The notes: generated from the sequence alone by a model not told the origin. Positions 8,570-42,191 are shown, counted from the stretch's first letter. The stretch is DNA of 64,000 nt from an uncultured virus (IMG/VR IMGVR_UViG_3300037067_004637) (IMGVR_UViG_3300037067_004637), one strand, 5' to 3'. A program made the numbers and translations.

Positions 8570-9601
8570 ATGAAAAAATTGACACATGATGAATTTGTAG
8601 AAAAAGCTAATATAGTTCATAATAATAAATATGTATATGTAGATAATTATGTTAAAAGTAAACAATATATTAATATAAAATGTCCTATACATGGTATATT
8701 TAAACAAAAACCTAACGATCATTTATCAGGTTATGGTTGTAAAGAATGTGGGAAAATAAAAACAAAAGAAACTTTTTTAAAAAAATATGGTGTTGAAAAT
8801 CCTATGCAAAATGTTGAAATAAAAGAAAAAACCAAAAAAACAAATTTAGAAAAATATGGTTGTGAAAATCCTTCACAAAATGAACAAGTTAAAGAAAAAA
8901 CGAAAAAGACAAATTTAAAAAAATATGGTGTTGAATATCCTATACAATGTGATGAAATAAAAGAAAAAATGAAAAAAACAATTTTTGAAAAATATGGTGT
9001 AGAATATACATTTCAAAATAAAGAAATAAAAGAAAAATTCAAAAAAACAATTTTTGAAAAATATGGCGTTGAATATCCTATACAATGTGATGAAATAAAA
9101 GAAAAAATGAAAAAAACAATTTTTGAAAAATATGGAGTTAAACATCCATTACAAAATGATGAAGTAAAAGAAAAAATGAAAAAAACAAATTTAAAAAAAT
9201 ATGGTGTTTCATGTGCTATGCAAAATAAAAAAATAAATGATATTATAAGGAAAAAATTAGAAGAAAAATGTATTTGGACAATTAAAGAAAAATTACCAGA
9301 ATTTGAAAAATATAGAATTTATATTAAAAATTTAACTAAAAGAAATAAAAAAGAATTATTTAATAATTGGGATGGATATGATTATTATGATGGTGAATAT
9401 ATTAAAGAAAACTTAAATTTAAAAAGTGGTGATAAAAATTATCCAACAATTGATCATAAAATATCAGTTTTTTATGGTTTTCATAATAATATACCACCAG
9501 AAAATATATCAGACATAAACAATCTTGTTATAACTAAAAAAAGTTTAAATTCTTCAAAAAAGAATAAAGATTTCAATTTATTTATAGAATCATTAAAATA
9601 A
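8570..9601 (+). CDS. Putative homing endonuclease: N-terminal Zn-finger, KKYGVE repeats, C-terminal HNH-like domain
   Basis: CPIHG...H..G.GCKEC; about seven 23-aa K(K/E)T...KYG.E repeats; PTIDHKIS...NL..T...N..K. Confidence 0.7.
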   Translation: MKKLTHDEFVEKANIVHNNKYVYVDNYVKSKQYINIKCPIHGIFKQKPNDHLSGYGCKECGKIKTKETFLKKYGVENPMQNVEIKEKTKKTNLEKYGCENPSQNEQVKEKTKKTNLKKYGVEYPIQCDEIKEKMKKTIFEKYGVEYTFQNKEIKEKFKKTIFEKYGVEYPIQCDEIKEKMKKTIFEKYGVKHPLQNDEVKEKMKKTNLKKYGVSCAMQNKKINDIIRKKLEEKCIWTIKEKLPEFEKYRIYIKNLTKRNKKELFNNWDGYDYYDGEYIKENLNLKSGDKNYPTIDHKISVFYGFHNNIPPENISDINNLVITKKSLNSSKKNKDFNLFIESLK

Positions 9602-11662: not shown

Positions 11663-13190
11663 TCTTCATTTTTTTCTTTAACTTCATTTTGTAATACAAT
11701 CAATAATTTACTTATTCTTTCTAATTTAGAAATATCAGCACCAACTAAATTATTAACTTGTGAAGTTAAATAATCTATATACTGAATAACATCATTTAAT
11801 TTAGTTTTTAATAGAACATTTTCTTTAATAATCAAATCCATTTGATTTTTTAAATTATTAAATTCTTCTACTGATATGTATTCAGATTTGATTATTCTTC
11901 TATTTTTAAATCGTTTCCAAAACATTGTTTTAATTTTTTAAGTCTTTCTTGTTTATTTAAATCACGTAAAAATTTTTCTATACCGTAGTATTTTGATGGA
12001 TGATCATATGAATTAATAGATTTTATAGTTACAAATGAATTATTATTAATTTGATTTATTCTATAAACATTTTTATTTTTCATCTTCAAAAATTTTTTTA
12101 ATTTTTTTAGTTCTTTCTTTTCTTATTTTTTCTTCTTTTGAAACGTGAGATTCAGATACATGTGATGTTAAATATTCAACATAATCTTTTGGTTTTTCAA
12201 GTTGTTCTGCTATATATTCATAATATTCAATATTAATATTCATTTTTCAAAAATTTTTTTAATTTTTTCAGTTCTTTCTTGTCTTATTTTTTCTTCTTTT
12301 GTTGAAAGATTTTCAGATACGTATTTAGCTAAATATTCAGCATAAGAATAATTAACCATTATATTTCCTTTTTTAATATTCATATTTTTAAATCATCTCC
12401 AAAAACACTCTTTTAATTTTTTAAGTCTTTTTATTTTTTTAAGATTTTCAATTTTTATTAAACCAGGTTCTAATAAGATATAAAATTCTATATAAGAAAG
12501 ATATTTATTATTTTTATTAGATAAATATTCTCTATAAATATCTACATCTAAATCACTTTCAAATATAATATTTTTTACTAAATCTTTACTCATTTTTTAT
12601 ATTAAATATTTGTTTGATCTTTTTTGTCTTTCTTCTCTTATTTGATCTTCTTTTGTTTTTAAAAACCTATTAATAACATAAATTTATAGACTTAGCAGAT
12701 AAATTTGAAAAAAATATATCACTCATTATCAAAAATTTTTTTAATTTTTTTCTTTCTATCTTCTCTTATTTGTTCTTCTTTTGTTTTAATATTAATATTT
12801 TGAGATAAATATTCTAATTGTTTTTTATAATATTCAATTTTTATATTAATATAATCTTCTGAATAATCAGAATAATCTTTTTTATTATCCAAATATTCTT
12901 TTTTTTCACTTAAAGAAGAATCTTTAATAATATATTTAATATAATCTTCAAATTTCATTTTTTAAAAATAATAATTTTTATTCTTCTTTATCAAAAATTT
13001 CATTTAATTTATTTATTTTTATTGTTTTTGATTTTCTAACTTCTTCATACAAAAGATTCATTTTCTTTGCTATATCTTCTACATAATTAACTAAATCATA
13101 ATAATCTATTTTAGATACATAATGTGTATTAACATATTCATAAGCATCTTCTGTTGGTAAATAATCTAAATTATTATTATCTTCATTCAT
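11659..13190 (-). CDS. Cluster of about 8 overlapping small coiled-coil ORFs (11659-11925, 11892-12089, 12073-12243, 12240-12383, 12393-12593, 12719-12958, 12978-13190, plus a remnant near 12600-12700)
   Basis: Shared Y.EYL[AS] and KTKEE[KQ]IR.[ED]R.KK[IL]KKIF motifs; 12073-12243 and 12240-12383 were translated by hand (below the ORF-track cutoff). Confidence 0.6.
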
Positions 13191-13244: not shown

Positions 13245-14066
13245 TTAAATATATTTATAATTAATAAATTTTATATTATTTGAATTAACTCTCCATCTAA
13301 TAGTTGTTATAGGTAAATTAAGTTTTTTAGAGGCATCACCTAATGAAACATATTTTATATTATCAATTAAAATTGGTATATTTTGTTTACCAAAATATTT
13401 ACCTTTTCTTGCTTTGCTTCTTTGTAATTTATATTTTTTAGTATGATGTTTACCATAAAATGGGTTTTTACTACCAGTTCTACTGGAAGCGCATTTTGAT
13501 AATTTTTCTTTCATATTTTTAGCTTTTTCTGTTCCAAAAAGTTCTTCAAATGTTTTATCTTTTCTATAACTATTATTATTTCTATAATAGTTTTTTAATT
13601 TTTTCCTAATTTTATTTTTTGTTTTTTCTGAATATTTATTTCCGAAATTTGGATTTTTTTCACCTTTCACTGATAAACTTTTAATTAATTTTTGTTCATC
13701 TGACATGTTTTCATATCTTTCTTTTACAGATTTAGTTATTTTTTTAATTATTTCTTCTCTTTTAGGGTTATTAGTTATATTATCACCACCTTTAGCTTGT
13801 TTAGCTATATTATATTTAGGTGATAATGTGTTTAAATAAAATTGTTCTTTTATTAATAAATCTTCTTGATTACATTTTTCAATTATTTCTACAATAAAAA
13901 TATCTTTTCCATATTTATTATACACTCTTTGTAAATGAATATTATTATGTTTATTATTTAGTAAATCATTAAAATGTCTTTTTATTCTTTTATCTATATT
14001 TTTAGATGAACCAATATAAAAATCATTTGTTTTTTTATTTATTATTTTATAAATACCCGAAAACAT
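13245..14066 (-). CDS. Free-standing GIY-YIG homing endonuclease (Seg-like) with NUMOD3 motifs
   Basis: SGIYKI...FYIGSS...R...H...EQ.Y...YN; GEKNPNFG and GSKNPFYGKHHT. Confidence 0.9.
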   Translation of the reverse strand: MFSGIYKIINKKTNDFYIGSSKNIDKRIKRHFNDLLNNKHNNIHLQRVYNKYGKDIFIVEIIEKCNQEDLLIKEQFYLNTLSPKYNIAKQAKGGDNITNNPKREEIIKKITKSVKERYENMSDEQKLIKSLSVKGEKNPNFGNKYSEKTKNKIRKKLKNYYRNNNSYRKDKTFEELFGTEKAKNMKEKLSKCASSRTGSKNPFYGKHHTKKYKLQRSKARKGKYFGKQNIPILIDNIKYVSLGDASKKLNLPITTIRWRVNSNNIKFINYKYI

Positions 14067-14131: not shown

Positions 14132-15097
14132 TTATACAGCAATAGGTACATTTTTCCAATTTGGATAAGGATTGTAATCTACAATTTCAAAATCTTCAAA
14201 TTTAAAATCATATATATCAGTAACTTTTCTTTTAAATTTTAATTTTGGTAATTGTCTTGGTTCTCTGGTTAATATCTCATTAATATATGGTTCATGATTA
14301 ACATATAAATGAACATCACCCATAAAAGTTGTCACTTCAACAGCAACATGATTTGTAACTTCAGCTAACATATGAGCAAGAAATGAATAAGATGCAAAAT
14401 TAAAAGGATTACCTAAAAAGTAGTCATTCGATCTCTGACTATATGCTAATGAAAGTTTTCTTTTTGGAAAATTATAATATTTCATTGCATCATCAACACT
14501 CATACCAGTGATATCTAAACTATAAAGTTTAACATGATCATTAAATAAATTAATTCTTTCTAATCTATCCAAAGGATCACTATATACTTGGAAACCGTAA
14601 TGGCATGGTGGCAAATTCATCTCATCAAGTTGTGCTGGATTCCAAGCCATTACAATCATTCTTCTATCTTCTGGATTATTTTTTAATTTATTAATTAACT
14701 GGTCAATTTGGTTAATATGACTTTTTGTTATAGTACCATCTTCATGTTCAGTGAATTTTTCCCAACGAGTCCATTGATAGCCATATATCTTATTTAAATC
14801 ACCATTAGGTGAACACCATTCATCCCAAATTGTAACACCGTTATCATTTAAATATTTCACATTAGTCATAGATAAATCTTTATATCTATCATCTCTCATA
14901 TGATTACCTAAAAACCATAATAACTCATAAATAACAGATTTTGTATGTATTCGTTTTGTGGTTAACATCGGAAATCCTTTTGTTAAATCAAACTTTAATG
15001 TTTCACCAAAAATAGCTTTAGTTTCTATACCAGTTCTATTTTGTTTTAAAGTGCCAGTTTCCCAAATTTTCTTCATTAAATCTAAATATACTTTCAT
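14132..15097 (-). CDS. thyA: Thymidylate synthase
   Basis: RTG, ELLWFL, IWDEW, YG.QW, RR..V.AWNP, LPPCH, QRS.D..LG.PFN, GDVHLY.NH, C-terminal IAV. Confidence 0.97.
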   Translation of the reverse strand: MKVYLDLMKKIWETGTLKQNRTGIETKAIFGETLKFDLTKGFPMLTTKRIHTKSVIYELLWFLGNHMRDDRYKDLSMTNVKYLNDNGVTIWDEWCSPNGDLNKIYGYQWTRWEKFTEHEDGTITKSHINQIDQLINKLKNNPEDRRMIVMAWNPAQLDEMNLPPCHYGFQVYSDPLDRLERINLFNDHVKLYSLDITGMSVDDAMKYYNFPKRKLSLAYSQRSNDYFLGNPFNFASYSFLAHMLAEVTNHVAVEVTTFMGDVHLYVNHEPYINEILTREPRQLPKLKFKRKVTDIYDFKFEDFEIVDYNPYPNWKNVPIAV

Positions 15098-16379: not shown

Positions 16380-18713
16380 TTATTTTATTATAGATTTATA
16401 AAAATCTATTCTTTTCTTATTTACTACATCAATACTATAATTATCACGAACATATTCATATAAATTTTCACCATAATCTTTAATAGCATTTGGATTATCA
16501 ACAAACCATTTCATTTTATTATACCAACCCATTTTATCATCTTCATTTATAAGAAAACCTTTTGGTTTATTATCATTTTTTCCTTCGATATCATCTATGG
16601 TATATGGACCAAAATTACTTGCAATAATTGGACAATGATGAGCACCAGCTTCGACAACTTTTAATTGTGAATTATGATTAATTATGCCATTAGCATTATA
16701 ACTATGAACATCTTCTATTTCTATATCATAAACATCATTTTTTAGAAATTGTATTTTATCAACATAATCATACATATTTTGTTTATGTTCATTATTACTA
16801 TGTTTATTTTCTGTCAATTTTTGCAACTTTTCAGTTTTTTTTCTTGAAATAAAACCTATTTCTTTATGAAAAATTTCTGAACCTATTCTTCTTAAATCTA
16901 AAGAATAATAATATCTTCTATAATGTTTGTTAAACTTATAATAAATTGTGCTTTGTATGTTAAATGGTAATAATAATATCTGTACTTGTTCTACTAATTT
17001 TAAATCTTTACTTGTAAAAGTAACACAAGAATTTTCACCAACAGTAGCATCAGCTTCAAATAATCCTTTTAAAAATTCTTTAATTACATTTTTTGGTGAT
17101 TTTAATATAACATCTGGAATTCTAAATACTTTACCTTTATTATTAATCCAATTATATTTTTTTGCAATATTTACAAAAGTTTTTGAAGTTAACTTAACAT
17201 CTACACCAAAACCATATTTAACTAAAGAAGTTTTACACCTCTTATCTGCTATTTTTCTGCATTTATTTGGTTTTAAACCAATAGATTCAAATAAAGAAAA
17301 AACATCATCTACAACATCATCATCTCTAATATCACAAGATATAGAAACATTACCGATTTCTCCCATATGACCATCACCTAATAAATATCCTAATAATCTA
17401 CCCCATCTTTCATTTATTTCTATTTTTGGTAACATTGTTTCATCGGATTTTTCTAATTTTTCTTCATTATTTTTTGTAAGCAACATTGGATATGTTATAG
17501 TTTGATAATCATTTTGATTTATGTCTGGTGTTGTCAATTGAATCTTATCACCAATTTTTAAATCTTTTAAATAAACCCATTCATTATCAATTAAAATTCT
17601 ATGAGTTAAAGTTCCCTCTATATTATAACCATCTTTTGTTGTTATTTTAATTGTGTCTTCATTTTCATATTTAAAATAATTTATAATATTATAATATTTA
17701 TTATAAATTTTTACTTTAGCATTTATTTTATTATTAACAATATCTTCTATTTTAATAAATCCTTTATTTGTAGATATTAATGAATCACCTGTAATACATT
17801 TAACTTGATTAAACAATAAACCACTTTTCAATGGTGCTAATGCAACATCACATTCATTATATTGAGTTCCATACAGTAATATTGGCTTGGTAAAACGCCT
17901 CTGGTAGAATTCGTTTATAAATTTAGGATTAATACCATAGGTATCTTTTCCACCATCTTCATATTTCTGTAACCATTGACGATAATCATTATTAGTGATA
18001 TATTTATAATTATTAGTAAAAATATCTTCAAAAAATGTCCAAGGACTGTTTCTCCAATCAGATTTAGCAACACCTTCATTAGTTTTCATTCTTAAATCAA
18101 AACCACAAAGATATAATTGTGCTTTTTGTAAAAAATCTTTATCAAAAGAACCAAAAGATTCTTTTAAAAGTCTTAAATCTGGCATATGTGATATACCACC
18201 ACCCCACAAAAATCTTATCTTATCAGATTTTACTTTTTTATCAAGCCACTGGTGTTCCTTTAAATTAACTGCATTCGGTAGTACAATAACATTTTCATTA
18301 ACTTCTTTAATATCTTTTTCAAAAATTGGTGATGTTGTTGTTATGTAATCAGCTTTTTTTAATTCATCAACAGTTTGTGTAGCACCATTATTATGTTTCC
18401 AATTTCTATAATTTAGATGTGAATCATTTAATCTCCAATGGTCATCTATATCATAAACTCTTTTTATATTATATTTTTTAATAATAGAATCAAAAATATT
18501 TTCAGATTTTTCATCTTTAAAAGCTATTTTTTTATTATAAACTACTATTTGAAAATTTCTAAGATATTCTTCATGTAGAATTGGTAATGTGTGGTCAAAC
18601 ATAGAACGTAATTCAATATGAATATCAGGATCGTTTATTGCAATATGAGAATTAAGAATTCTCCAGTAACCCACGCCATCATTGTCGATATTTAACACTA
18701 AAATATTTATCAT
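16380..18713 (-). CDS. GT-B glycosyltransferase containing an intein
   Basis: GVGYWRI, YDIDD.W, W.GG.SH..DL, DVALAPL, K|SQLKVVEAG motif split by the intein. Confidence 0.85.
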   Translation of the reverse strand: MINILVLNIDNDGVGYWRILNSHIAINDPDIHIELRSMFDHTLPILHEEYLRNFQIVVYNKKIAFKDEKSENIFDSIIKKYNIKRVYDIDDHWRLNDSHLNYRNWKHNNGATQTVDELKKADYITTTSPIFEKDIKEVNENVIVLPNAVNLKEHQWLDKKVKSDKIRFLWGGGISHMPDLRLLKESFGSFDKDFLQKAQLYLCGFDLRMKTNEGVAKSDWRNSPWTFFEDIFTNNYKYITNNDYRQWLQKYEDGGKDTYGINPKFINEFYQRRFTKPILLYGTQYNECDVALAPLKSGLLFNQVKCITGDSLISTNKGFIKIEDIVNNKINAKVKIYNKYYNIINYFKYENEDTIKITTKDGYNIEGTLTHRILIDNEWVYLKDLKIGDKIQLTTPDINQNDYQTITYPMLLTKNNEEKLEKSDETMLPKIEINERWGRLLGYLLGDGHMGEIGNVSISCDIRDDDVVDDVFSLFESIGLKPNKCRKIADKRCKTSLVKYGFGVDVKLTSKTFVNIAKKYNWINNKGKVFRIPDVILKSPKNVIKEFLKGLFEADATVGENSCVTFTSKDLKLVEQVQILLLPFNIQSTIYYKFNKHYRRYYYSLDLRRIGSEIFHKEIGFISRKKTEKLQKLTENKHSNNEHKQNMYDYVDKIQFLKNDVYDIEIEDVHSYNANGIINHNSQLKVVEAGAHHCPIIASNFGPYTIDDIEGKNDNKPKGFLINEDDKMGWYNKMKWFVDNPNAIKDYGENLYEYVRDNYSIDVVNKKRIDFYKSIIK
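16671..17798 (-). mobile_element. Intein (376 aa) with LAGLIDADG homing endonuclease
   Basis: Begins CITGDSLI, block B T.THR, LLGYLLGDG and FLKGLFEADA, ends VYDIEIEDVHSYNANGIINHN followed by Ser+1. Confidence 0.93.
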
Positions 18714-18770: not shown

Positions 18771-19649
18771 ATGATTATAACAAAAAATATTGTTATAAAT
18801 ATTTCAAAAACAGTTCAGATAACATATTATTATAAAAAATATAAAATATTATTAAATATTGGTGATAATTTTGTTATACCAATTAGTAAGATTCCATTAA
18901 ATTCTCATATTAAAATAAAAGTATTATGTGATATATGTGGGAAAGAGCATGAAATTAAATATCAAACATATAATCATAATACTAAAAATAAAACAGAAAA
19001 ATATTATTGTAGTAATGTTGAATGCATGAAAATAAAAAGAACAATTTCCATTAATAAAAAATATGGTATTGATAATATTTTTCAAAATGAAAATATAAAA
19101 AATAAAATAAAACAATCCAATTTAGAGAAATATGGTGTTGATAATCCACAAAAAAATAAAGAAATAAAAATTAAAAGTGAGAATACTAATTTAATTAAAT
19201 ATGGTTATAAAAATGTTTTTCAAAATGAAAATATAAAAGAAAAAAGTAGAAAAACTAACTTGAAAAAATATGGTGTTGATTATGCAATTCAAAATAAAGA
19301 AATTTTTAATAAAATTACTATTAGTTCATTTATACGTAAAAAATATAAAGATACTAATATACATTATCAAGGAAGTTATGAATTAGATTTTTTAGAAAAA
19401 TATTATGATAAATTTGATATAGAAAATGGTAAAACGTTTAAATATTTTTTAAATAATAAAAAGCATATTTATTATAGTGATTTTTATATACCATCTTTAA
19501 ATTTAGTTATTGAAATTAAAAGTAACTATATTTATGAATTGCATAAAGAAAAAGTTATAGAAAAAGAAAGAACTGTTAAATTAGAAAAATATAATTATAT
19601 TTTAATCCTTAATAAAGATTATTCTGAATTTAATAAAAAATATTTTTAA
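18771..19649 (+). CDS. Putative homing endonuclease: Zn-finger, KYG repeats, C-terminal PD-(D/E)xK domain
   Basis: CDICG; K..N..KYGV repeats; GSYELDF...YYSDFYIP..NLVIEIKS. Confidence 0.7.
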   Translation: MIITKNIVINISKTVQITYYYKKYKILLNIGDNFVIPISKIPLNSHIKIKVLCDICGKEHEIKYQTYNHNTKNKTEKYYCSNVECMKIKRTISINKKYGIDNIFQNENIKNKIKQSNLEKYGVDNPQKNKEIKIKSENTNLIKYGYKNVFQNENIKEKSRKTNLKKYGVDYAIQNKEIFNKITISSFIRKKYKDTNIHYQGSYELDFLEKYYDKFDIENGKTFKYFLNNKKHIYYSDFYIPSLNLVIEIKSNYIYELHKEKVIEKERTVKLEKYNYILILNKDYSEFNKKYF

Positions 19650-27315: not shown

Positions 27316-29391
27316 TTATTTAATTAAATTTTTTAAATCATCTACTTCTTTTTGTAAATTTTCAACTATTTTATGTTCTTCTTTTAAAGCTTCAATTAAA
27401 ATAGCAACTACGTTATCATAATTTACCCCTTTTATTTCAGAATCATCTTTTGTTTTAGGTACAAGTTCTGGATATATAGTTTCTACTTCTTGGGCTATTA
27501 AACCAACTTTTCTTTCTTTGTTTTCATCAGATTTCCAATTAAAATAAACACCTCTTAAATTTAAAACTTTATCTAAAGAATTATCAAGAGTTATAATATT
27601 TTCTTTTAATCTTATATCAGAAGAAGCTACCCAATCTGTACCATAAGAAGAACCATTAACTCTAAAAATATATCCACTTTGTTCAGTTTCAGTTCCAATT
27701 AAAACAGTACCAGCATTTCCACTTGCATATTGTAAAATAACATTACCAGCATTTGTTGTTGAAGAACCATTTCCACCATTTATATAAACATCTCCACCAA
27801 TACTTGATGTATTAGCTGCAACACCACCTAATAAATATAAATTACCACCTTTAGCACTCGATGATGATGTAGATTGAGCTTGTACAGTTAAATCATAACC
27901 ATCTGAAACTGCTGCACTAGATATCACAATTGTTCTATTTGAACCAGAAGATAATGTTATATTACCACTAATTGTCATATTATTATTAAATAATGATGTG
28001 TTACCAACAATTAAAGTACCGTAAGCTGTTGAACCGTTACTACACAAATAAACGTTACCAACTGTTCCAGTAGTTCCACCATAAATATAAACGTTTCCAC
28101 TTGTGCCACTACCAAGAGCACCTGTTCCAGCGTTACCACCTCTTAACGTCAAGTGTCCACCGTCACCACCAGTACCACTACCACCAGCTTGTGAACCACC
28201 AGTACCACCTACAACTGTGGTAGCTCCACCTGCACCACCAACACCGTCACCACTTCCTATAGAACCACCTTGACCACCTACAACGTTAGTAGTACCACCT
28301 ACACCACCAGTACCAGAACCAACTGTTATACCGTATCCAGCACCAGCAAGTAAATAAACACTACCACCTGTTATGCTACCTATATATTGTGAATCTTGAC
28401 CACTAAAATATGTTGTAGTTGTTGCTGCTGTTGTTGCTGGTTCTCTACTATAAACTCTATTTCCTGAACCACCTAAACGTATATTACCATTCACTGATAA
28501 AGTAGTACCATCAAATTGTAAATTAGCTTCACCATTCAAACCAGTTGCTGTTCCATCAGATGTTATTATTCTATTGTCGCCATAATACGATATTGTTGCA
28601 CCACTTGGTATAGTTTGTGAAGATATATAACCGTTATTATCTATCACTAACATTTGTGAACCAGAACCACCCAATTCCGTTATAACTAAATTAGGTACAT
28701 AAACAGTATTTGCACTTATTGCTGTAATACCATTACATGCTATAACAGCAACATTTGTTAATCCAGATTCAACAATATTATTTATACCACCAATTATAGC
28801 AGACCTTACCGATTTTATAATACCCCTATCACCACCTAATATAACAGAATTAACACTTGTCCCACTAATATTATTATCTACACCACCTAAAATCGCACTA
28901 TTATCACTTAATATATCACTTTCTAATGAGTAAGTGGCTGAATGATTAAAACTACCATTTCCACTAGCTTTAACTAAATATGATGCAATACCAAAACCAC
29001 CAGCTAAACTATAATCACCACCAGCATATGTATATGTACCAAAAGCTCTTGATGATAAACCTGCTGATGTTGTCCACATACCACCAGAATATGAATAATC
29101 ACCTTCTGCTTTTGTATAAAAACCAGCAGATTGTACATAATTACCAAAAGGCCAAACTAAATAACCATTTGCTAAATATCTTTCACCATATGATAAACCA
29201 GATAACGAACCAATAACAACAGAATCACCAATAACATCACCACTTAATGATGTTTGTATAGTTTCTACTGTATTATTTGATTTTTTTATTTTTATTTTAT
29301 TTCCATCTTCACTGTCAATACCAAGTAAAAGATATCCTTTATCTGGTGGTAATAATTGACTGAATTTTGTTTCTTTAATTTTGATAGCCAT
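27316..29391 (-). CDS. Tail fibre/spike with Gly-rich shaft and C-terminal intramolecular chaperone (peptidase S74)
   Basis: SAILGG..N repeats, Gly-rich GG.GG, SDIRLKENI...LRGV.F.WK...GLIAQEVE..PELV...LIEALKE coiled coil. Confidence 0.88.
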   Translation of the reverse strand: MAIKIKETKFSQLLPPDKGYLLLGIDSEDGNKIKIKKSNNTVETIQTSLSGDVIGDSVVIGSLSGLSYGERYLANGYLVWPFGNYVQSAGFYTKAEGDYSYSGGMWTTSAGLSSRAFGTYTYAGGDYSLAGGFGIASYLVKASGNGSFNHSATYSLESDILSDNSAILGGVDNNISGTSVNSVILGGDRGIIKSVRSAIIGGINNIVESGLTNVAVIACNGITAISANTVYVPNLVITELGGSGSQMLVIDNNGYISSQTIPSGATISYYGDNRIITSDGTATGLNGEANLQFDGTTLSVNGNIRLGGSGNRVYSREPATTAATTTTYFSGQDSQYIGSITGGSVYLLAGAGYGITVGSGTGGVGGTTNVVGGQGGSIGSGDGVGGAGGATTVVGGTGGSQAGGSGTGGDGGHLTLRGGNAGTGALGSGTSGNVYIYGGTTGTVGNVYLCSNGSTAYGTLIVGNTSLFNNNMTISGNITLSSGSNRTIVISSAAVSDGYDLTVQAQSTSSSSAKGGNLYLLGGVAANTSSIGGDVYINGGNGSSTTNAGNVILQYASGNAGTVLIGTETEQSGYIFRVNGSSYGTDWVASSDIRLKENIITLDNSLDKVLNLRGVYFNWKSDENKERKVGLIAQEVETIYPELVPKTKDDSEIKGVNYDNVVAILIEALKEEHKIVENLQKEVDDLKNLIK

Positions 29392-32776: not shown

Positions 32777-34708
32777 TTATTTTAAAAAATCTTTTAATTT
32801 TTCATCATATGAATAAATGATTTTATCATTCGTCATTTTTAATTCTATATTATTTTCTAAACAAATATTATAGAAATCATTTATAGTTATAATGTTATTA
32901 TTATCAACAGTAAATTGAATTAATTTTTTAAATATATTAAGATTTTTATTTAAAATATCTCTTGTTCTTTTCTTTTCATCAACTAAAAGATTTTCAATTA
33001 TAGAGTTTGTTTTATCTAAATCGTAATTGGCATCATATTCACTCATTGTATTTTCTTTAGCTATTCTTGATATACTACCATCCATACCATACCTTCTAAC
33101 ATAATTTGCAAATAAATCAGTAGCTACTGTTAAATCATGTGCTGAACCTGTTGCTCTATAATTTTCACCAAAAACAATTTCTTCTGCAACTAATCCAGCT
33201 AAATAAACACAAGCCTTATCTTTTATAAATATTTTATTATCAACTGTGTTATGACTTATCATAAATCCAGATGCATAAATTGATGAACTATTAATATTGA
33301 TTTGTTTTGGAACTGTTTTAAATAAAATACTATAAACTAAAGAATGACCTAATTCATGAACAATTAAAAGCATTTTTTCATCAATAGATTTTTCTTTTTT
33401 AATAGTATCTAAATCTAAATGAACAAATTTTTCAAAATTTTTATTATTTATTATAGTAAATAATTTATTATTTTCAAAGTCTATTATTAATTTATTTACG
33501 TTATTTTCAAAAGATAAAAATAAAAAATGTGGTAAATTACTACCTAAAATATTAAAAACTGTTGATACAACTGGTCTAACACCTTGTGTTGGAAATACAC
33601 CATTTCTATATATAACATCATAAACATTTTGTGTTAATTCTATATCAACATTATGTTCTTTCTTTATTCTATTTAATAATTCTGAACAATATTTTTTAAT
33701 TATTATATAATAACTTTTTTTATCTAAACAGGGATATATAATATGATTATTTCCAAATCTTGCTATCTGTTCAGGTTTGAATTTTTTAGATAAAGCTGCT
33801 TTTATATTAATAACATTAATTCTTTTTGATTGTTCATGATAAATGTCAGCATCTTTATCAGCATCTTCTATTTCATCTGACATATAAAAAGCTTCATCTA
33901 AATTACCAGATATAAATATTAAAAGTTTTTCATAAGATTTTCCTTCATTAACATTATCACACTTTAAACTATTTTCTAAAATATTTATCCTATCTTCAAT
34001 AGGCATCTTCATTATATTTTCAACTGGTTCAGTAAGCCCCAATAATTTTTTAAATTTATTTGCAGTCCAGTAAGATGTTTTATATAATAAATCAATTTTA
34101 TTATTTTCTGATGATTGTTCTGATGATTTTTCTGTTTTTTCATCAGAATCTTCTTCTTTTGACTTTTCTTTATTCGTTTTTAATTGTTCTTGATAATATT
34201 TTTCCTCTAACATAGCTTCTAATATTTCTACTCTTCTTTTTGAATCATTTTTAAATTTACCATCAGAAAGAAGCATCCAAATATCATTAAAATTTTTATT
34301 TTCTATCATTTTACCTTCTTCATCTTTTGTACGATATCTTTGTATTTCATCTAACAATAAAATAGATGGTACTGTTGATTCTATACCACTATTTTCTAAA
34401 TAATCTTGAATATCTTTTGAATAATAATCAGCTTTCATATCCATCTGTATTTCTACAAATTTATCTGTAAAGTTTAATAATTTTACTAAAGTTCTAACTA
34501 AATCAGTTTTACCAACACCAGTTATACCCCACAATGATATAATGAGAGGTCTATATTGAATTTCTGGTGCTAAATACCAAAGTTTAATATTATCAATTAT
34601 TTTATCTATAACATCATCAATACCAATAAACTTTTCTTTTAAAGCTGTTTTAATATCTTCTAATTTTTGTCTTTTAATATTGATATTTTCAAAATATTCT
34701 TTAGTCAT
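32777..34708 (-). CDS. Soluble AAA+ ATPase fused to an M41 (FtsH-like) zinc protease
   Basis: Walker A GITGVGKT, Walker B LLLDE, F.PEQIARFG, HELGH, LAG.VAEE, TG...DL; no transmembrane segment. Confidence 0.85.
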   Translation of the reverse strand: MTKEYFENINIKRQKLEDIKTALKEKFIGIDDVIDKIIDNIKLWYLAPEIQYRPLIISLWGITGVGKTDLVRTLVKLLNFTDKFVEIQMDMKADYYSKDIQDYLENSGIESTVPSILLLDEIQRYRTKDEEGKMIENKNFNDIWMLLSDGKFKNDSKRRVEILEAMLEEKYYQEQLKTNKEKSKEEDSDEKTEKSSEQSSENNKIDLLYKTSYWTANKFKKLLGLTEPVENIMKMPIEDRINILENSLKCDNVNEGKSYEKLLIFISGNLDEAFYMSDEIEDADKDADIYHEQSKRINVINIKAALSKKFKPEQIARFGNNHIIYPCLDKKSYYIIIKKYCSELLNRIKKEHNVDIELTQNVYDVIYRNGVFPTQGVRPVVSTVFNILGSNLPHFLFLSFENNVNKLIIDFENNKLFTIINNKNFEKFVHLDLDTIKKEKSIDEKMLLIVHELGHSLVYSILFKTVPKQININSSSIYASGFMISHNTVDNKIFIKDKACVYLAGLVAEEIVFGENYRATGSAHDLTVATDLFANYVRRYGMDGSISRIAKENTMSEYDANYDLDKTNSIIENLLVDEKKRTRDILNKNLNIFKKLIQFTVDNNNIITINDFYNICLENNIELKMTNDKIIYSYDEKLKDFLK

Positions 34709-37822: not shown

Positions 37823-38062
37823 TTATTTTAATATTTTTTCAAGTTTTTTTATTCTATTTCGTGTTGATTTATTACAAAAAGGACAATCTATTAATAATTC
37901 TCTCATTGTGTATATCTCACATTCTAAATCTCCATCATATTTTTGTGATATATTACCATTTCTTTTAGTTAATATTTTTAATGTGTTATATAAATATATT
38001 TGTCCTTCACAACAAAATTTCCCATTTTCACAATCACGAAAAACATCTCTGTTTCTTCTCAT
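37823..38062 (-). CDS. Cys-rich small protein, C-terminal RxxK tag
   Basis: C...FCCEG...CPFC; ends NRIKKLEKILK. Confidence 0.55.
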   Translation of the reverse strand: MRRNRDVFRDCENGKFCCEGQIYLYNTLKILTKRNGNISQKYDGDLECEIYTMRELLIDCPFCNKSTRNRIKKLEKILK

Positions 38063-38766
38063 AATCTACATTTTAAACAATGTCTTACATATGTTAAAAG
38101 AACACCCAACATATTAGAACCTTGACCATTACATATACCCCAAAAAGTATCACCCCAAACATTACCTTCTATTAATTCACTATCACCAGTTTCTAATAAT
38201 TTACTTCTCAATGGTTCTTCACTAAATTTTAAGAAAAGTAAATCTTTCATTATAATAATTTTTTTACTTTCCCAATCTTCTCTTATTTTTATATTTTTAA
38301 TATATTCTTTAGCTTCACCTGCAGTTGTCATTAATGATATTTTTTCTCTTATATCATCTTTTAATGTTTTTTGTGCTTGATATGCATGTTCAACAGATGG
38401 GTATTCAATACCATTATAAATAATATTAACTGAATGAAAATTAGATAAAAAACTATATTCACCTCTGAATGATGTTATTTGTTTAGGTGATTTACCAATT
38501 TTTTCTCTCTTTAAAAAATTAAAATATTCAGAATCTGACATTTTAGATATATTAATTTTACTTTGATAATAATCTATTACACACATCGGAATATATTTTT
38601 GTTTATATCCACAAACTCTACAAACTAAAATTACTTCACCATTTTCTTCTCTTGGCACTAATGTAGGTTCATGTGTCGAATCATCACCACATGTTAAAGG
38701 GTGAACATTAGAATCATTTTGATATAATTCTATTGCTTTTATTAATTCTTCATTACTCATTTTCAC
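38059..38766 (-). CDS. NADAR (YbiA-like) protein with N-terminal Zn-finger-like domain
   Basis: FLSNF, Y.SVEHAYQAQK, KF....R.KLL.TG..ELIEGN.WGD.FWG, G.N.LG.LL; N-terminal HPLTC...C..C.Y.Q. Confidence 0.9.
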   Translation of the reverse strand: MKMSNEELIKAIELYQNDSNVHPLTCGDDSTHEPTLVPREENGEVILVCRVCGYKQKYIPMCVIDYYQSKINISKMSDSEYFNFLKREKIGKSPKQITSFRGEYSFLSNFHSVNIIYNGIEYPSVEHAYQAQKTLKDDIREKISLMTTAGEAKEYIKNIKIREDWESKKIIIMKDLLFLKFSEEPLRSKLLETGDSELIEGNVWGDTFWGICNGQGSNMLGVLLTYVRHCLKCRL

Positions 38767-40243: not shown

Positions 40244-40945
40244 TTAAAATATCAATTTAACAGTAATATTTTTTGGTGAAATATTATCCATAGTATAAAA
40301 ACCATTTTCTGATAAATTTAAATCTTTATATAAATTTATATTTAATTCATCAATATTTATTTCTAATATTACTATTTTTTCATTAATGTTTTCTGATTTT
40401 AAATAATTTCCAAATTTTAAAACTAATTCATAATTATCAGAAAAATATATTCTATCTGGATGTTTTGATAATTTATTATAAGATTTAGGTATTAAACCAT
40501 ATTGTAAAATTCTTTTAACATTCTTATTTAATGTAGCATGATATAATACTTTTGGTAATGGTATTATTTTGATATCATATTTTGGTTCTAAAAACAAAAC
40601 AATTGGTTGACTGTTATTATTAAAATCTGTAATCCATTCATCACCATTTAATGTAATTTTTGATATAAAATAACCCAAATTATTAATTAATGGTATATAA
40701 TTATCTAATGTTTTAAATCTACCTTCTAAATAAATTTCACCATCTTCTTCAACATTTCCATTTAATTCTGGAAATCTTTTTAATAATATTTTTAATGATA
40801 ATGAACTTGGTTGTGTTTTAATTAAACCTTCTACAATATTTTGAGATTTAAATTCAGTATAAATTTTAATATCATCACCCATATCTAAATTAGATATATT
40901 TTCAATATATTGTTTATACTCTAATATAAAGTTTAATTTCCTCAT
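40244..40945 (-). CDS. ADP-ribosyltransferase/Tpt1-KptA-like protein, paralogue of 60827-61519
   Basis: EGLIKT...LYHAT...I...GL.PK...HPDRIYF...LY.D.N...GFYT.DNISPKNI. Confidence 0.65.
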   Translation of the reverse strand: MRKLNFILEYKQYIENISNLDMGDDIKIYTEFKSQNIVEGLIKTQPSSLSLKILLKRFPELNGNVEEDGEIYLEGRFKTLDNYIPLINNLGYFISKITLNGDEWITDFNNNSQPIVLFLEPKYDIKIIPLPKVLYHATLNKNVKRILQYGLIPKSYNKLSKHPDRIYFSDNYELVLKFGNYLKSENINEKIVILEINIDELNINLYKDLNLSENGFYTMDNISPKNITVKLIF

Positions 40946-40987
40946 AATTATATTTATATTATAATAAATTATAAAAGTTTACAAAAT

Positions 40988-41022
40988 AAAAAACCCCACC
41001 CGAAAATACTCGGAGTGGGGTT
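40988..41022 (-). terminator. Intrinsic terminator ending ncRNA-1
   Basis: Minus strand aaccccactccgag-tatt-ttcgggtggggtttttt. Confidence 0.8.
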
Positions 41023-41465
41023 CGAACAGTTCAACATTTCTTTTTAAGATCAACCTATAGTCTTTAAACTATCGTTCAGATACCTAATATTGAAAATTAA
41101 CTTGATATCATCCATACTCACTATTTGGAGAAATTAGACTTACCATTGCTGGATTACATCTAATCTTTAGATAATACTGTCTTTTCAAAGGCCAAACCAC
41201 CTTATAGATATAGCTTCTTTAACGGAAAGCTGAGTGACTTTTCTCATTATCTTATTGACCAACTGTTCAAGGAACTTTATTATCTATTTCATCTATTTGA
41301 CAGAGAAGATTTCTCTTCGCTGCTTGGGAGTTTATGGCTACCCATTATCTATATTTATCTATATTATTCTCTTAAATTATTATATCTATAAAACTTACAT
41401 GGGTCGATCTCTTGCTTTCATATTTTTTGGTTTTTTAAATGTTTAATAAATTTTAATTCTATTAA
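40990..41465 (-). ncRNA. Candidate structured ncRNA-1 (about 400-470 nt), family unassigned
   Basis: No credible long ORF, higher GC than flanks, TAAATTTG box at 41473-41480, long-range pair ttgaacagtt/aactgttcga, several local hairpins, terminator. Confidence 0.6.
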
Positions 41466-41524
41466 TGTGATACAAATTTACAATCTTTTTCTGAGATAAA
41501 AAAATATTTCAAAGTTTTTTTTTA

Positions 41525-41790
41525 AAAAAAATAGTGAAAGATACAAATGGATCAGATTTGCTTATTTCCTTCCACTACTTCTGGTTGTTTCTGGCAACCT
41601 TTAGTCTTTAAGCTTTAATCTCTTGTATTACTCCATCAAACTCGTCAGTTTTTGGTACAATTGGCTGTGTAGGAAATATCTACACGCTAAGACTTTTCTA
41701 AACTGTTTCTATCTTAGCTTTAAAAACAGCCCACTACTTTAACTCAGTAGCCCCTTTATCTCTATTAAAAATTTCAATGTACTTAAATTA
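41525..41790 (-). ncRNA. Candidate structured ncRNA-2 (about 250 nt), family unassigned
   Basis: TATCTTTG box at 41796-41803; stems gctaaga/tcttagc, gtgtag/ctacac, ggttg/caacc, gctact/agtagt; ends at a U-tract. Confidence 0.6.
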
Positions 41791-41807
41791 CTCTGCAAAG
41801 ATAATAT

Positions 41808-42191
41808 TTATATTTGAAAATAAAAAATTTTATTTAACTTTTTTCTCCTTACATTTTTTTTTAAATTTTCAAAATATTTATTAATTGATTCAATATCATC
41901 ACTTATTCTAATATAATCACCATAATATTTATGTTCCCAATAAATAGAACCATCATATTTTTCATTATATAAAAATTTATGGTCAATTCCCATTTTTCTA
42001 TTCCAAGTTTGACCATCATTCAACATGAAAATAATTTTTTCATCATTTTTTAATTCTGAAACAATATCTTTTAAACTACATCCTTCTTTATTTATAGGAA
42101 TATTTAATTTATTCATAGCGTTATAATCAAAACCATAATTAAAATTTAATCCAAGACTTTTAATTTCATTTATTGCTTTTTCTGTGTTCAT
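41808..42191 (-). CDS. Hypothetical protein, C-terminal RxxK tag
   Basis: Ends VRRKKLNKIFYFQI. Confidence 0.55.
   Translation of the reverse strand: MNTEKAINEIKSLGLNFNYGFDYNAMNKLNIPINKEGCSLKDIVSELKNDEKIIFMLNDGQTWNRKMGIDHKFLYNEKYDGSIYWEHKYYGDYIRISDDIESINKYFENLKKNVRRKKLNKIFYFQI

What the first reader, a model, noticed from the sequence alone, without database searches (positions are those of the whole stretch)
40990..41790. Two tandem, separately promoted structured ncRNAs sharing a 20-nt motif
Seen: about 850 nt with no credible CDS in an otherwise tightly packed genome, visibly richer in GC. Each half has its own TAnnTTTG box on the minus strand (41796-41803 and 41473-41480) and ends at a U-tract or terminator. 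They share caacct[a/t]tagtctttaa[a/g]ct (41051-41070 and 41595-41614, 18/20 identical; RNA sense AG[U/C]UUAAAGACUA[U/A]AGGUUG) in their 3' parts, and both contain GAAAAGUC. RNA-1 has a 10-bp long-range closing stem (ttgaacagtt/aactgttcga) around nested hairpins. RNA-2 has a multibranch junction. I could not match them to tRNA, tmRNA, RNase P, SRP or intron consensus. Inference: paralogous phage ncRNAs of an unassigned class, e.g. protein-binding decoys, anti-defence RNAs or ribozymes.
Basis: partly seen in the sequence, partly recalled or inferred. Interest (0 to 1): 0.8.

Follow-up and report, generated by a model that had tools for sequence, protein, structure and literature searches.

The report
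Orphan GC-rich non-coding stretch, megaphage
An 862-base gene-free, GC-enriched stretch in a very AT-rich giant-phage genome probably makes one or two non-coding RNAs of no known family, but nothing yet shows that they are expressed, conserved or related to each other.

Summary
The sequence features are mostly real. Window 40946-41807 has no credible ORF under three genetic codes. At GC 0.29 it is the only GC-enriched gap among the 7 internal gaps of 270 nt or more (others 0.16-0.19). It ends in a strong minus-strand intrinsic terminator. It matches no Rfam family, tRNA or tmRNA. The 18/20 shared motif and the shared AGAAAAGUC are present.

Support for the specific reading is thin:
- The two halves are not alignable beyond the 20-mer (local score reached by 3 of 300 shuffles; global by 47 of 300).
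- The motif sits in different predicted structural contexts in the two halves.
- TAnnTTTG boxes are not enriched in non-coding DNA.
- Fold z-scores of the cores (-2.2, -2.1) are ordinary for this genome.

No homologue turned up in the collections searched, so covariation could not be tested. No run listed was an RNA run.

Relatives carry other RNA genes in the same neighbourhood: an intron-like tRNA, an HDV-like ribozyme, tRNA clusters and a tmRNA. The gene directly downstream has a Tpt1/KptA-like fold.

Verdict: a plausible lineage-specific ncRNA locus. Paralogy, separate promoters and function are unproven.

The parts
40946..41807 (-). ORF-free, GC-enriched gap (862 nt) between a 127-aa ORF and a Tpt1/KptA-like gene
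   Evidence: no ORF under three codes; GC 0.29 against 0.16-0.19 in the other gaps; 13 proteins scanned against PHROGs: 8 six-frame pieces of the gap and 5 flanking ORFs; best match of a gap piece E 0.0053
41796..41803 (-). TATCTTTG, candidate Bacteroidota-type -7 box upstream of RNA-2
   Evidence: Its context resembles boxes 29-61 nt upstream of six genes, but the motif is not enriched in non-coding DNA
41583..41755 (-). RNA-2 core: two hairpins, a three-way junction closed by pairing of the two shared motifs, and a GGUUG/CAACC hairpin
   Evidence: MFE -40.1 kcal/mol, z -2.10, 7 of 200 shuffles as good; junction helix p 0.56-0.80
41691..41699 (-). AGAAAAGUC copy in RNA-2
41595..41614 (-). shared 20-mer, RNA-2 copy
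41523..41582 (-). long AU-rich hairpin followed by U8; possible weak terminator of RNA-2
   Evidence: MFE; not called by the terminator scan
41473..41480 (-). TAAATTTG, weaker candidate -7 box upstream of RNA-1
41282..41389 (-). cluster of five AUAGAU(A) repeats flanking two GC-rich hairpins in the 5' part of RNA-1
   Evidence: 5 copies in 150 nt; at most 3 in any 150-nt window lying wholly outside this locus; 114 copies in the window on both strands
41023..41415 (-). RNA-1 core, closed in the MFE by a 10-bp long-range helix (41402-41411 with 41046-41055)
   Evidence: z -2.16, 3 of 100 shuffles as good; plus strand z -0.39; helix p 0.91-1.0
41236..41244 (-). AGAAAAGUC copy in RNA-1
41051..41070 (-). 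shared 20-mer, RNA-1 copy
40985..41023 (-). intrinsic terminator: GC-rich hairpin plus U tract
   Evidence: The same kind of signal lies after other genes of the window
40244..40945 (-). context: 233-aa protein with a Tpt1/KptA-like fold, directly downstream
   Evidence: PHROG 5470 E 3.5e-4; PF01885 E 0.037, below the cutoff; AlphaFold pLDDT 89.6; all 17 best listed PDB matches are Tpt1/KptA, E 1.4e-6 to 1.4e-4
41808..42191 (-). context: 127-aa ORF of unknown function upstream; no terminator follows it before the gap

Best explanation
The gap is transcribed from the minus strand and yields one or two stand-alone non-coding RNAs specific to this phage lineage. RNA-2 would be about 290 nt and RNA-1 about 400-480 nt. 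The second ends at the strong terminator at about 40990.

Shown:
- absence of coding capacity;
- GC enrichment unique among the gaps of the window;
- the terminator;
- minus-strand folds that are more stable than plus-strand folds;
- no membership of any described RNA family.

Inferred:
- The locus fills an RNA-gene slot. Relatives carry tRNA-like, ribozyme, tRNA or tmRNA genes in the same neighbourhood.
- The RNAs work through a protein partner. The shared 20-nt element would be the common recognition site.
- The most concrete candidate partner is the adjacent Tpt1/KptA-like enzyme, with the RNA as its substrate, decoy or scaffold. In the characterised family, members use NAD+ on RNA or DNA ends.

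Odds: I put about 0.45 on 'functional ncRNA(s)', and only about 0.1 on the specific link to the neighbouring enzyme.
For: - No ORF under code 11, TAG=Q or TGA=W.
- No meaningful protein-family similarity of the six-frame pieces of the gap, and none to the window's own proteins.
- GC 0.29 with peaks of 0.33-0.36. The other gaps have 0.16-0.19 and genes average 0.218. Long GC-rich intergenic regions in AT-rich genomes are an established predictor of structured ncRNAs (PMC8632094, abstract seen).
- Terminator at the 3' end. Comparable terminators follow other genes of the window. No terminator follows the upstream ORF, so the gap lies inside a transcription unit.
- Strand asymmetry of fold stability: minus strand z -2.16 and -2.10, plus strand z -0.39 and -1.64.
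- In near-identical strains from other samples, 2 of 9 variants fall in MFE-paired positions although 59% of positions are paired (binomial P 0.028). One of the two turns G-U into A-U.
- The 20-mer is improbable by chance: 3 of 300 shuffles reach the local score, and 0.01 copies are expected in the window.
- Neighbourhood: relatives L001-L003 carry a tRNA-like gene between topoisomerase II and NADAR. In L001 an HDV-like ribozyme follows it.
- 3 of 25 loci with the Tpt1-like gene hold tRNA clusters or a tmRNA within 4 kb.
- The neighbour has a Tpt1/KptA-like fold.
Against: - No homologue of the RNA region was found anywhere it was sought. There is therefore no covariation evidence.
- 0 of the 25 loci with the Tpt1-like gene have a GC-enriched ORF-free gap directly upstream. 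The association with that gene is not conserved.
- Local 150-nt z-scores in the middle of RNA-1 are about -0.5.
- Core z-scores near -2 are reached by 11% of background windows.
- The two halves are not demonstrably related beyond 20 nt.
- The motif has different predicted partners in the two halves.
- The promoter boxes are not statistically distinguishable from chance.
- The variant data come from contigs of depth 2-4 and may include errors.
- The Tpt1 catalytic Arg-His-Arg-Arg tetrad (a motif I recall, not from any call) was not checked in the neighbour.
Confidence: 0.45

Rival explanations
1. A long structured 3' UTR or intercistronic spacer of the topoisomerase operon. It is transcribed by read-through. 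Its hairpins serve only RNA stability, processing or termination, and no independent RNA product has a function of its own.
For: - No terminator follows the 127-aa ORF; the only strong one lies 820 nt further on.
- The promoter boxes are not significant.
- Fold z-scores are modest.
- The region is not conserved next to the same genes in relatives.
Against: - The other intergenic spacers of this genome have GC 0.16-0.19 and are shorter.
- Elsewhere in the window terminators sit directly after genes, so an 820-nt GC-enriched tail is atypical.
- The 20-mer repeat and the avoidance of paired positions by variants are unexplained.
Confidence: 0.2
2. A decaying remnant of an RNA-gene island (former tRNA, tmRNA or ribozyme genes) or of a mobile insertion. 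It is no longer functional.
For: - Relatives hold tRNA-like, ribozyme, tRNA and tmRNA genes in the corresponding neighbourhood.
- With thresholds lowered to 80%, ARAGORN draws a poor cloverleaf at 41659-41734.
- The window is rich in mobile elements: three homing endonuclease genes and an intein.
- There are no homologues.
Against: - The profile of the relatives' tRNA-like element finds nothing in the window.
- The lowered ARAGORN threshold is uninformative: at 85% it already gives 10 calls, mostly inside genes.
- The homing endonuclease genes here have GC 0.16-0.20, not 0.29.
- Near-identical copies persist across many samples and habitats with few changes.
Confidence: 0.15
3. A DNA-level element: a replication origin or a protein-binding regulatory region inside the replication module. 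The AUAGAU/ATCTAT repeats and the T8A9 tract would be the functional parts.
For: - Five ATCTAT repeats lie within 110 bp, the densest cluster in the window.
- A T8A9 tract is present.
- The neighbours are topoisomerase II and a helicase.
Against: - Origins are usually AT-rich, whereas this region is the GC-rich exception.
- The cumulative GC skew shows no turn here.
- The repeat enrichment is only marginal.
- The terminator and the strand asymmetry of folding point to RNA.
Confidence: 0.1
4. Missed protein coding: very small ORFs or an unusual decoding mode.
For: - Megaphage relatives are known to recode stop codons (recalled from the literature, not from a call).
- Short ORFs of 30-70 aa exist in the gap.
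Against: - Neither TAG=Q nor TGA=W opens a long frame.
- Neighbouring genes read well under code 11.
- The six-frame pieces of the gap match no family meaningfully.
- The longest ORF is on the strand opposite to all neighbouring genes and to the terminator.
Confidence: 0.05

Closest known systems
GOLLD and ROOL large non-coding RNAs of phages and prophages (Rfam RF01998, RF03087; what I say of their biology is recalled)
   Same: Long ORF-free RNA-like loci carried by phages, often beside tRNA genes, with unknown function.
   Different: No match to any Rfam model, these included, even at E up to 10. The units here are smaller. There is no covariation support and there are no relatives. Two terminator-separated units are possible.
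Orphan candidates from GC-rich intergenic regions of AT-rich genomes (GC-IGR approach; PMC8632094, abstract seen)
   Same: Detected by the same signature: an unusually long, unusually GC-rich gap in an AT-rich genome.
   Different: Those candidates become motifs only when homologues with covariation exist. None was found here.
tRNA-like gene with a 115-nt structured insertion, plus an HDV-like ribozyme, at the syntenic place in relatives L001-L003. Compare the theta ribozymes next to phage tRNAs (PMC10879173, listing and start of abstract seen)
   Same: Same neighbourhood between topoisomerase II and NADAR. Same GC-enriched ORF-free appearance, GC 0.30-0.31 in L001 and L003.
   Different: No sequence relation: the nhmmer profile finds nothing in the window. 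No tRNA features and no HDV-family match in the window.
Phage T4 stable RNA species 1 and 2 (rnaC, rnaD), small RNAs of unknown function in the T4 tRNA region (recalled, not tested)
   Same: Stable RNAs of unknown role in a T4-like replication and nucleotide-metabolism context. This phage has T4-like topoisomerase II and baseplate genes.
   Different: The sizes differ, and expression of the present RNAs is not shown.

Membership tests
tRNA | cloverleaf with T loop, anticodon loop and acceptor stem | tested here: not met
   ARAGORN finds 0 genes in the window, with or without introns. Rfam tRNA gives no hit at E up to 10. Only a poor cloverleaf appears at an 80% threshold, where false calls abound.
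tmRNA | tRNA-like domain plus tag reading frame | tested here: not met
   ARAGORN finds none. The Rfam tmRNA families give no hit. The same tools do detect a tmRNA in relative L168.
RNase P RNA | conserved regions CR-I to CR-V and the P4 long-range helix | tested here: not met
   No Rfam RNase P model matches at E up to 10. The likeness of GAAAAGUC to CR-I is recalled and was judged only by eye.
Group I intron | P3-P9 core with the guanosine site in P7, inserted in a host gene | tested here: not met
   RF00028 gives no hit. The flanks are two separate complete ORFs, and a terminator ends the region. By eye, the motif order (AGUC 5' of GACUA) is opposite to the R/S elements, which I recall rather than tested.
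HDV-like (theta) ribozyme | nested double pseudoknot P1-P4 with a catalytic C in J4/2 | tested here: inconclusive
   No HDV-family match in the window, although one is seen in relative L001 (32.2 bits, E 2.3e-4, below the gathering score of 44). My hand-threading of RNA-1 and RNA-2 onto the topology did not give a consistent fit. No pseudoknot-aware search was run.
Hammerhead ribozyme | CUGANGA and GAAA cores around three stems | tested here: not met
   CUGACGA is present in RNA-2, but I found by eye no GAAA closing a stem II. No Rfam hammerhead model matches.
GOLLD / ROOL | match to the family covariance model | tested here: not met
   No hit at gathering score, or at E up to 10.
Intrinsic (rho-independent) terminator | GC-rich hairpin followed directly by a U tract on the transcribed strand | tested here: met
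   Site at 41023-40985 on the minus strand. The end of RNA-2 (41582-41523) only partly fits: an AU-rich stem and U8, not called by the scan.
Bacteroidota-type promoter | TAnnTTTG -7 box (with a TTTG -33 box, recalled) at a fitting distance from a transcript start | tested here: inconclusive
   Both boxes are present. Six genes have such a box 29-61 nt upstream. But 26 of 130 boxes lie in the 16.4% that is non-coding, so there is no enrichment. No transcript starts are known.
Tpt1/KptA RNA 2'-phosphotransferase (the neighbouring 233-aa protein) | two-lobed fold with an NAD-binding ADP-ribosyltransferase lobe | tested here: met
   AlphaFold model with pLDDT 89.6. All 17 best listed PDB matches are Tpt1/KptA, E 1.4e-6 to 1.4e-4, with TM only 0.33-0.45. 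PHROG 5470 E 3.5e-4. Pfam PF01885 at 14.5 bits is below its cutoff of 26.
Tpt1/KptA RNA 2'-phosphotransferase (the neighbouring 233-aa protein) | catalytic Arg-His-Arg-Arg tetrad (recalled) | not tested
   The invariant columns of the 79-sequence alignment include H136 and R165 but no Arg-His pair. No residue-level superposition was done.

The most novel reading that the evidence does not exclude
The locus encodes a pair of lineage-specific structured RNAs that share a 20-nt recognition element. They would be the dedicated RNA partners (substrate, decoy or scaffold) of the adjacent phage Tpt1/KptA-like NAD+-dependent enzyme. That would be a phage RNA-end modification or RNA-tagging module with its own RNAs, sitting where related megaphages keep tRNA-like, ribozyme and tmRNA genes.
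Probability: 0.08. Interest if true: 0.75.

Novelty: new member of a known kind. Interest (0 to 1): 0.38.

Why it matters
- Giant phages of anaerobic habitats carry many RNA genes whose roles in taking over host translation and RNA metabolism are only beginning to be read.
- A terminator-bounded RNA locus with no family would add to the short list of large phage RNAs of unknown function, if it proves real.
- It sits beside an RNA-end-modifying enzyme, which gives a concrete biochemical hypothesis to test.
- If it proves to be a spacer or a relic, it shows that a GC-rich gap, a repeat and hairpins in a single sequence do not suffice to call paralogous ncRNAs.

Tried and rejected
HOMOLOGUE HUNTS, ALL EMPTY
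- blastn against 50,697 phage records: no match.
- The 20-mer in IMG/VR: 0 stretches.
1 of 118 had AAAAGTC upstream, and none resembled the RNAs.
- A two-motif pattern in IMG/VR: 25 stretches, 24 inside open frames. L136 is a coding region with a LysM-like peptide, judged by eye from the translation. L138 is non-coding but otherwise unlike the RNAs.
- blastn and pattern searches over whole relatives G001-G008 gave only short AT-rich or coding-repeat matches.
- Topoisomerase II as anchor in metagenome contigs: 2 short contigs, neither reaching the RNA side.
- The same anchor in genome contigs: none.
- The 20-mer in genome contigs: one hit, in a GC-rich Latescibacterota MAG, judged to be chance.
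- The 233-aa protein alone in IMG/VR: none. As an alignment: 25 loci, none with the RNA.

SEQUENCING RUNS
- No RNA holder was listed.
- The laid contigs of 4 runs were near-identical fragments and gave only 8 substitutions and 1 deletion in the gap. Parts of the gap had no cover in some runs.

IDEAS DROPPED
- Recoded gene.
- Pseudogene of a window protein or of a homing endonuclease.
- Homologue of the relatives' tRNA-like element.
- Tandem duplication of a 450-540-nt unit.
- Antisense action of the 20-mer on the translation starts of 63 window genes. The best duplex is about -9 kcal/mol, and 99 and 92 of 100 shuffled motifs pair at least as well.
- Hammerhead, HDV-like, RNase P and tmRNA readings, judged by eye and by Rfam.

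TECHNICAL
- The genome-wide z-score scan stopped at 12.5 kb for lack of time.
- The first stem-constraint script was off by one base. It was corrected.
- Earlier-findings look-ups for this genome and this sequence were empty.

Full report
WHAT THE WINDOW IS

The window has GC 0.217 and encodes phage proteins:
- a fused topoisomerase II, a helicase, a tail fibre and a baseplate wedge subunit;
- an intein-bearing gene, an FtsH-like protease and a NADAR protein.

The only relatives of its topoisomerase II in IMG/VR lie on contigs of 422, 640 and 676 kb, at 57-67% identity. The source is therefore a very AT-rich giant-phage lineage. No whole genome is held for it.

Words of a 2.4-kb stretch around the finding occur in 22 listed runs from 16 studies. 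The listed labels include groundwater, landfill, anaerobic digester, wastewater and manure metagenomes.

THE OBSERVATION

The gap 40946-41807 (862 nt) lies between a 127-aa ORF and a 233-aa ORF. Both are on the minus strand, like all their neighbours.
- It holds only ORFs of 30-70 aa.
- Reading TAG as Gln or TGA as Trp opens nothing longer than 91 aa.
- The six-frame pieces of the gap match no PHROG family meaningfully; the best is E 0.0053.
- No window protein, the three homing endonucleases included, matches the gap; all tblastn E-values I saw in the output, which was cut, exceed 0.07.
- Its GC is 0.29, with 200-nt peaks of 0.33 and 150-nt peaks of 0.35-0.36. The six other internal gaps of 270 nt or more have 0.16-0.19. 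Genes average 0.218, sd 0.042, and the homing endonuclease genes have 0.16-0.20.

This compositional exception is the strongest single argument for an RNA product. It is the signature used by the GC-rich intergenic region approach (PMC8632094, abstract seen).

- The 20-mer is present twice at 18/20.
- AGAAAAGUC is present twice.
- Both TAnnTTTG boxes are present.
- A GC-rich hairpin with a U tract closes the region at 41023-40985 on the minus strand.
- Hairpin-plus-U terminators also follow other genes of the window, so this signal is in use in this phage.

KNOWN FAMILIES

Nothing known matches.
- Rfam finds nothing in the window at gathering scores.
- It finds nothing in the whole window at E up to 0.05.
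- On 40900-41900 at E up to 10 it gives eight matches, all with E of 1 or more. Several of these (PyrR, NsiR1, RefA9) cover the terminator hairpin.
- ARAGORN finds no tRNA or tmRNA, with or without introns.
- Lowering its threshold to 80% draws one poor cloverleaf in RNA-2. At 85% the window already gives 10 calls, mostly inside genes.

Promoters. TAnnTTTG occurs 130 times in the window. 26 of these lie in the 16.4% that is non-coding, where about 21 are expected. The box before RNA-2 resembles those found 29-61 nt upstream of six genes. The one before RNA-1 resembles them less.

Paralogy.
- A local alignment of the halves scores 30, against 22.5 ± 2.6 for shuffles; 3 of 300 shuffles reach it.
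- A global alignment is reached by 47 of 300 shuffles, and a reversed-sequence control scores higher.
- The relation therefore rests on the 20-mer alone. The 9-mer is at chance level (E 2.3).
- In RNA-2 the two shared motifs pair with each other (p 0.56-0.80) and close a three-way junction, and GGUUG forms a local hairpin (p about 1).
- In RNA-1 the same GGUUG pairs with a segment 350 nt upstream (p 0.97-1.0), and I could find by eye only 4 complementary base pairs between the two motifs.

The closing stem. Forcing it costs 7.8 kcal/mol. It would cross the favoured long-range helix, so both could coexist only as a pseudoknot.

Fold stability.
- The full units give z -3.09 and -2.70, but these include the terminator hairpins.
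- The cores give -2.16 (3 of 100 shuffles as good) and -2.10 (7 of 200).
- In 334 background windows of 150 nt from the first 12.5 kb, 11% reach z of -2 or lower and 3.6% reach -3 or lower.
- Local windows in the middle of RNA-1 score about -0.5.
- In favour of an RNA on the minus strand, the plus-strand cores score only -0.39 and -1.64.

COMPARATIVE EVIDENCE

I could not obtain any. The searches and their blanks are listed under Tried and rejected. In short, no sequence like the region or its motifs was found in these collections:
- the phage records;
- IMG/VR;
- eight whole relatives' contigs;
- the species-representative genomes, which gave one chance hit.

Protein-anchored searches returned no contig that both is close enough and covers the region.

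Four runs laid on the stretch gave near-identical low-depth fragments.
- Of the 9 differences inside RNA-1, 2 fall in MFE-paired positions, although 59% of positions are paired (binomial P 0.028).
- One of those two turns G-U into A-U, and the other breaks a U-A pair.
- One loop change keeps a GNRA tetraloop, GCAA to GUAA.

This is a weak hint of constraint on stems from data that may contain errors. No run listed was an RNA run, so expression is untested.

THE NEIGHBOURHOOD

In relatives L001-L003 a GC-enriched ORF-free stretch of about 330-360 nt lies between topoisomerase II and, in L002, a NADAR gene 61% identical to the window's. It was measured as a gap of GC 0.30-0.31 in L001 and L003.
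- It holds a tRNA-like gene whose anticodon loop carries a conserved structured insertion of about 115 nt.
- Among the three copies, 12 of the 60 predicted pairs show compensatory changes.
- In L001 a sub-threshold HDV-like ribozyme follows directly (32.2 bits, E 2.3e-4, gathering score 44). This is the arrangement described for theta ribozymes beside phage tRNAs (PMC10879173, listing and start of abstract).
- A profile of this element finds nothing in the window. The window's RNAs are therefore positional counterparts at most, not homologues.

The 233-aa gene directly downstream of the terminator has 115 relatives in metagenomes.
- Its model is confident, with pLDDT 89.6.
- All 17 best listed PDB matches are Tpt1/KptA RNA 2'-phosphotransferases, E 1.4e-6 to 1.4e-4. 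The next is DarT1.
- The sequence-level matches are weak: PHROG E 3.5e-4 and Pfam below its cutoff.
- Of 25 IMG/VR loci with this gene, 3 have RNA genes within 4 kb: a 13-tRNA cluster, five tRNAs and a tmRNA.
- None of the 25 has a GC-enriched gap directly upstream.

INTERPRETATION

The most economical reading is that the gap is part of a minus-strand transcription unit and yields non-coding RNA. Whether that is two separately initiated RNAs, one processed precursor, or a structured tail of the upstream operon cannot be told from the sequence.

I put 0.45 on functional ncRNA(s). I favour a protein-partner mechanism in which the 20-mer is the shared recognition element. Two observations lead me there:
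- The motif is conserved in sequence but not in predicted pairing context.
- It has no antisense target among the translation starts of 63 window genes.

The adjacent Tpt1/KptA-like enzyme is the most concrete candidate partner. That link is inference from adjacency only, and I give it about 0.1.

The rivals are a functionless structured 3' UTR or spacer (0.2), a relic of an RNA-gene island or mobile insertion (0.15), a DNA-level element built on the five ATCTAT repeats and the T8A9 tract (0.1), and missed coding (0.05).

NOVELTY AND SCORE

No described family fits. The locus is at best a new, so far single-lineage member of the broad kind 'phage-encoded non-coding RNA gene'. Interest 0.38.

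Noticed in passing
L001:13372-13559, L002:~12172-12358, L003:~12469-12655: Relatives carry a tRNA-like gene with normal acceptor, D and T arms. Its anticodon loop holds a conserved structured insertion of about 115 nt. The aligned stretches are 88% identical on average, and 12 of 60 predicted pairs show compensatory changes among the three copies. ARAGORN calls it an intron-containing tRNA in 2 of 3 copies, with different anticodons. It is too small for a group I intron (recalled sizes), and its nature is unexplained.
   Followed up: partly
L001:13560-13627: An HDV-like ribozyme match (RF02682; 32.2 bits, E 2.3e-4, below the gathering score of 44) starts at the base after the 3' end of the tRNA-like gene. 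This resembles the theta ribozymes described beside phage tRNAs. L002 and L003 show nothing comparable at that place; I judged that by eye only.
   Followed up: partly
L003:12316-12348: A DUF805b RNA motif passes Rfam's gathering score (40.3 against 35.6 bits), just upstream of the tRNA-like gene.
   Followed up: no
window 40244-40945 (-) and 38059-38766 (-): A protein with a Tpt1/KptA-like fold and a NADAR-domain protein lie 1.5 kb apart. The pair suggests NAD/ADP-ribose chemistry on nucleic-acid ends. The Tpt1-like family has 115 metagenomic relatives, none of which carries a Pfam domain in the listing except one glycosyltransferase annotation.
   Followed up: partly
L167:5019-6873, L168:6394-6774, L169:7380-8622: In 3 of 25 IMG/VR loci, the Tpt1-like gene lies within 4 kb of RNA genes: a cluster of 13 ARAGORN tRNA calls (plus two more Rfam tRNA calls), a 379-nt tmRNA, and five tRNAs.
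   Followed up: no
window 8570-9601 (+), 13245-14066 (-), 18771-19649 (+), 16380-18713 (-): Three homing endonuclease genes, one directly downstream of thymidylate synthase (14132-15097). Also a gene interrupted by an intein with a LAGLIDADG domain. This stretch of the genome is rich in mobile elements.
   Followed up: no
window 41282-41389 (-): Five AUAGAU(A) repeats flank two GC-rich hairpins. This is the densest cluster of the hexamer in the window: 5 copies in 150 nt, against at most 3 in any 150-nt window lying wholly outside this locus.
   Followed up: partly
window 28000-28400 (inside 27316-29391, -): The highest GC in the window (up to 0.55) lies in the tail-fibre gene. It is explained by a Gly/Ser/Thr-rich repeat region in the translation.
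   Followed up: yes
L020, L021, L022, L030, L047, L050, L068 and about 15 further loci: Many unrelated IMG/VR contigs of GC about 0.44 share a conserved stretch containing AAAGACTAAAGGTTGGCA followed closely by ATG. It is probably the conserved upstream region of one phage gene family. It is unrelated to this finding.
   Followed up: no
window 32777-34708 (-): A phage-encoded FtsH-like protein: an AAA domain plus the Peptidase_M41 domain (E 1.8e-12).
   Followed up: no
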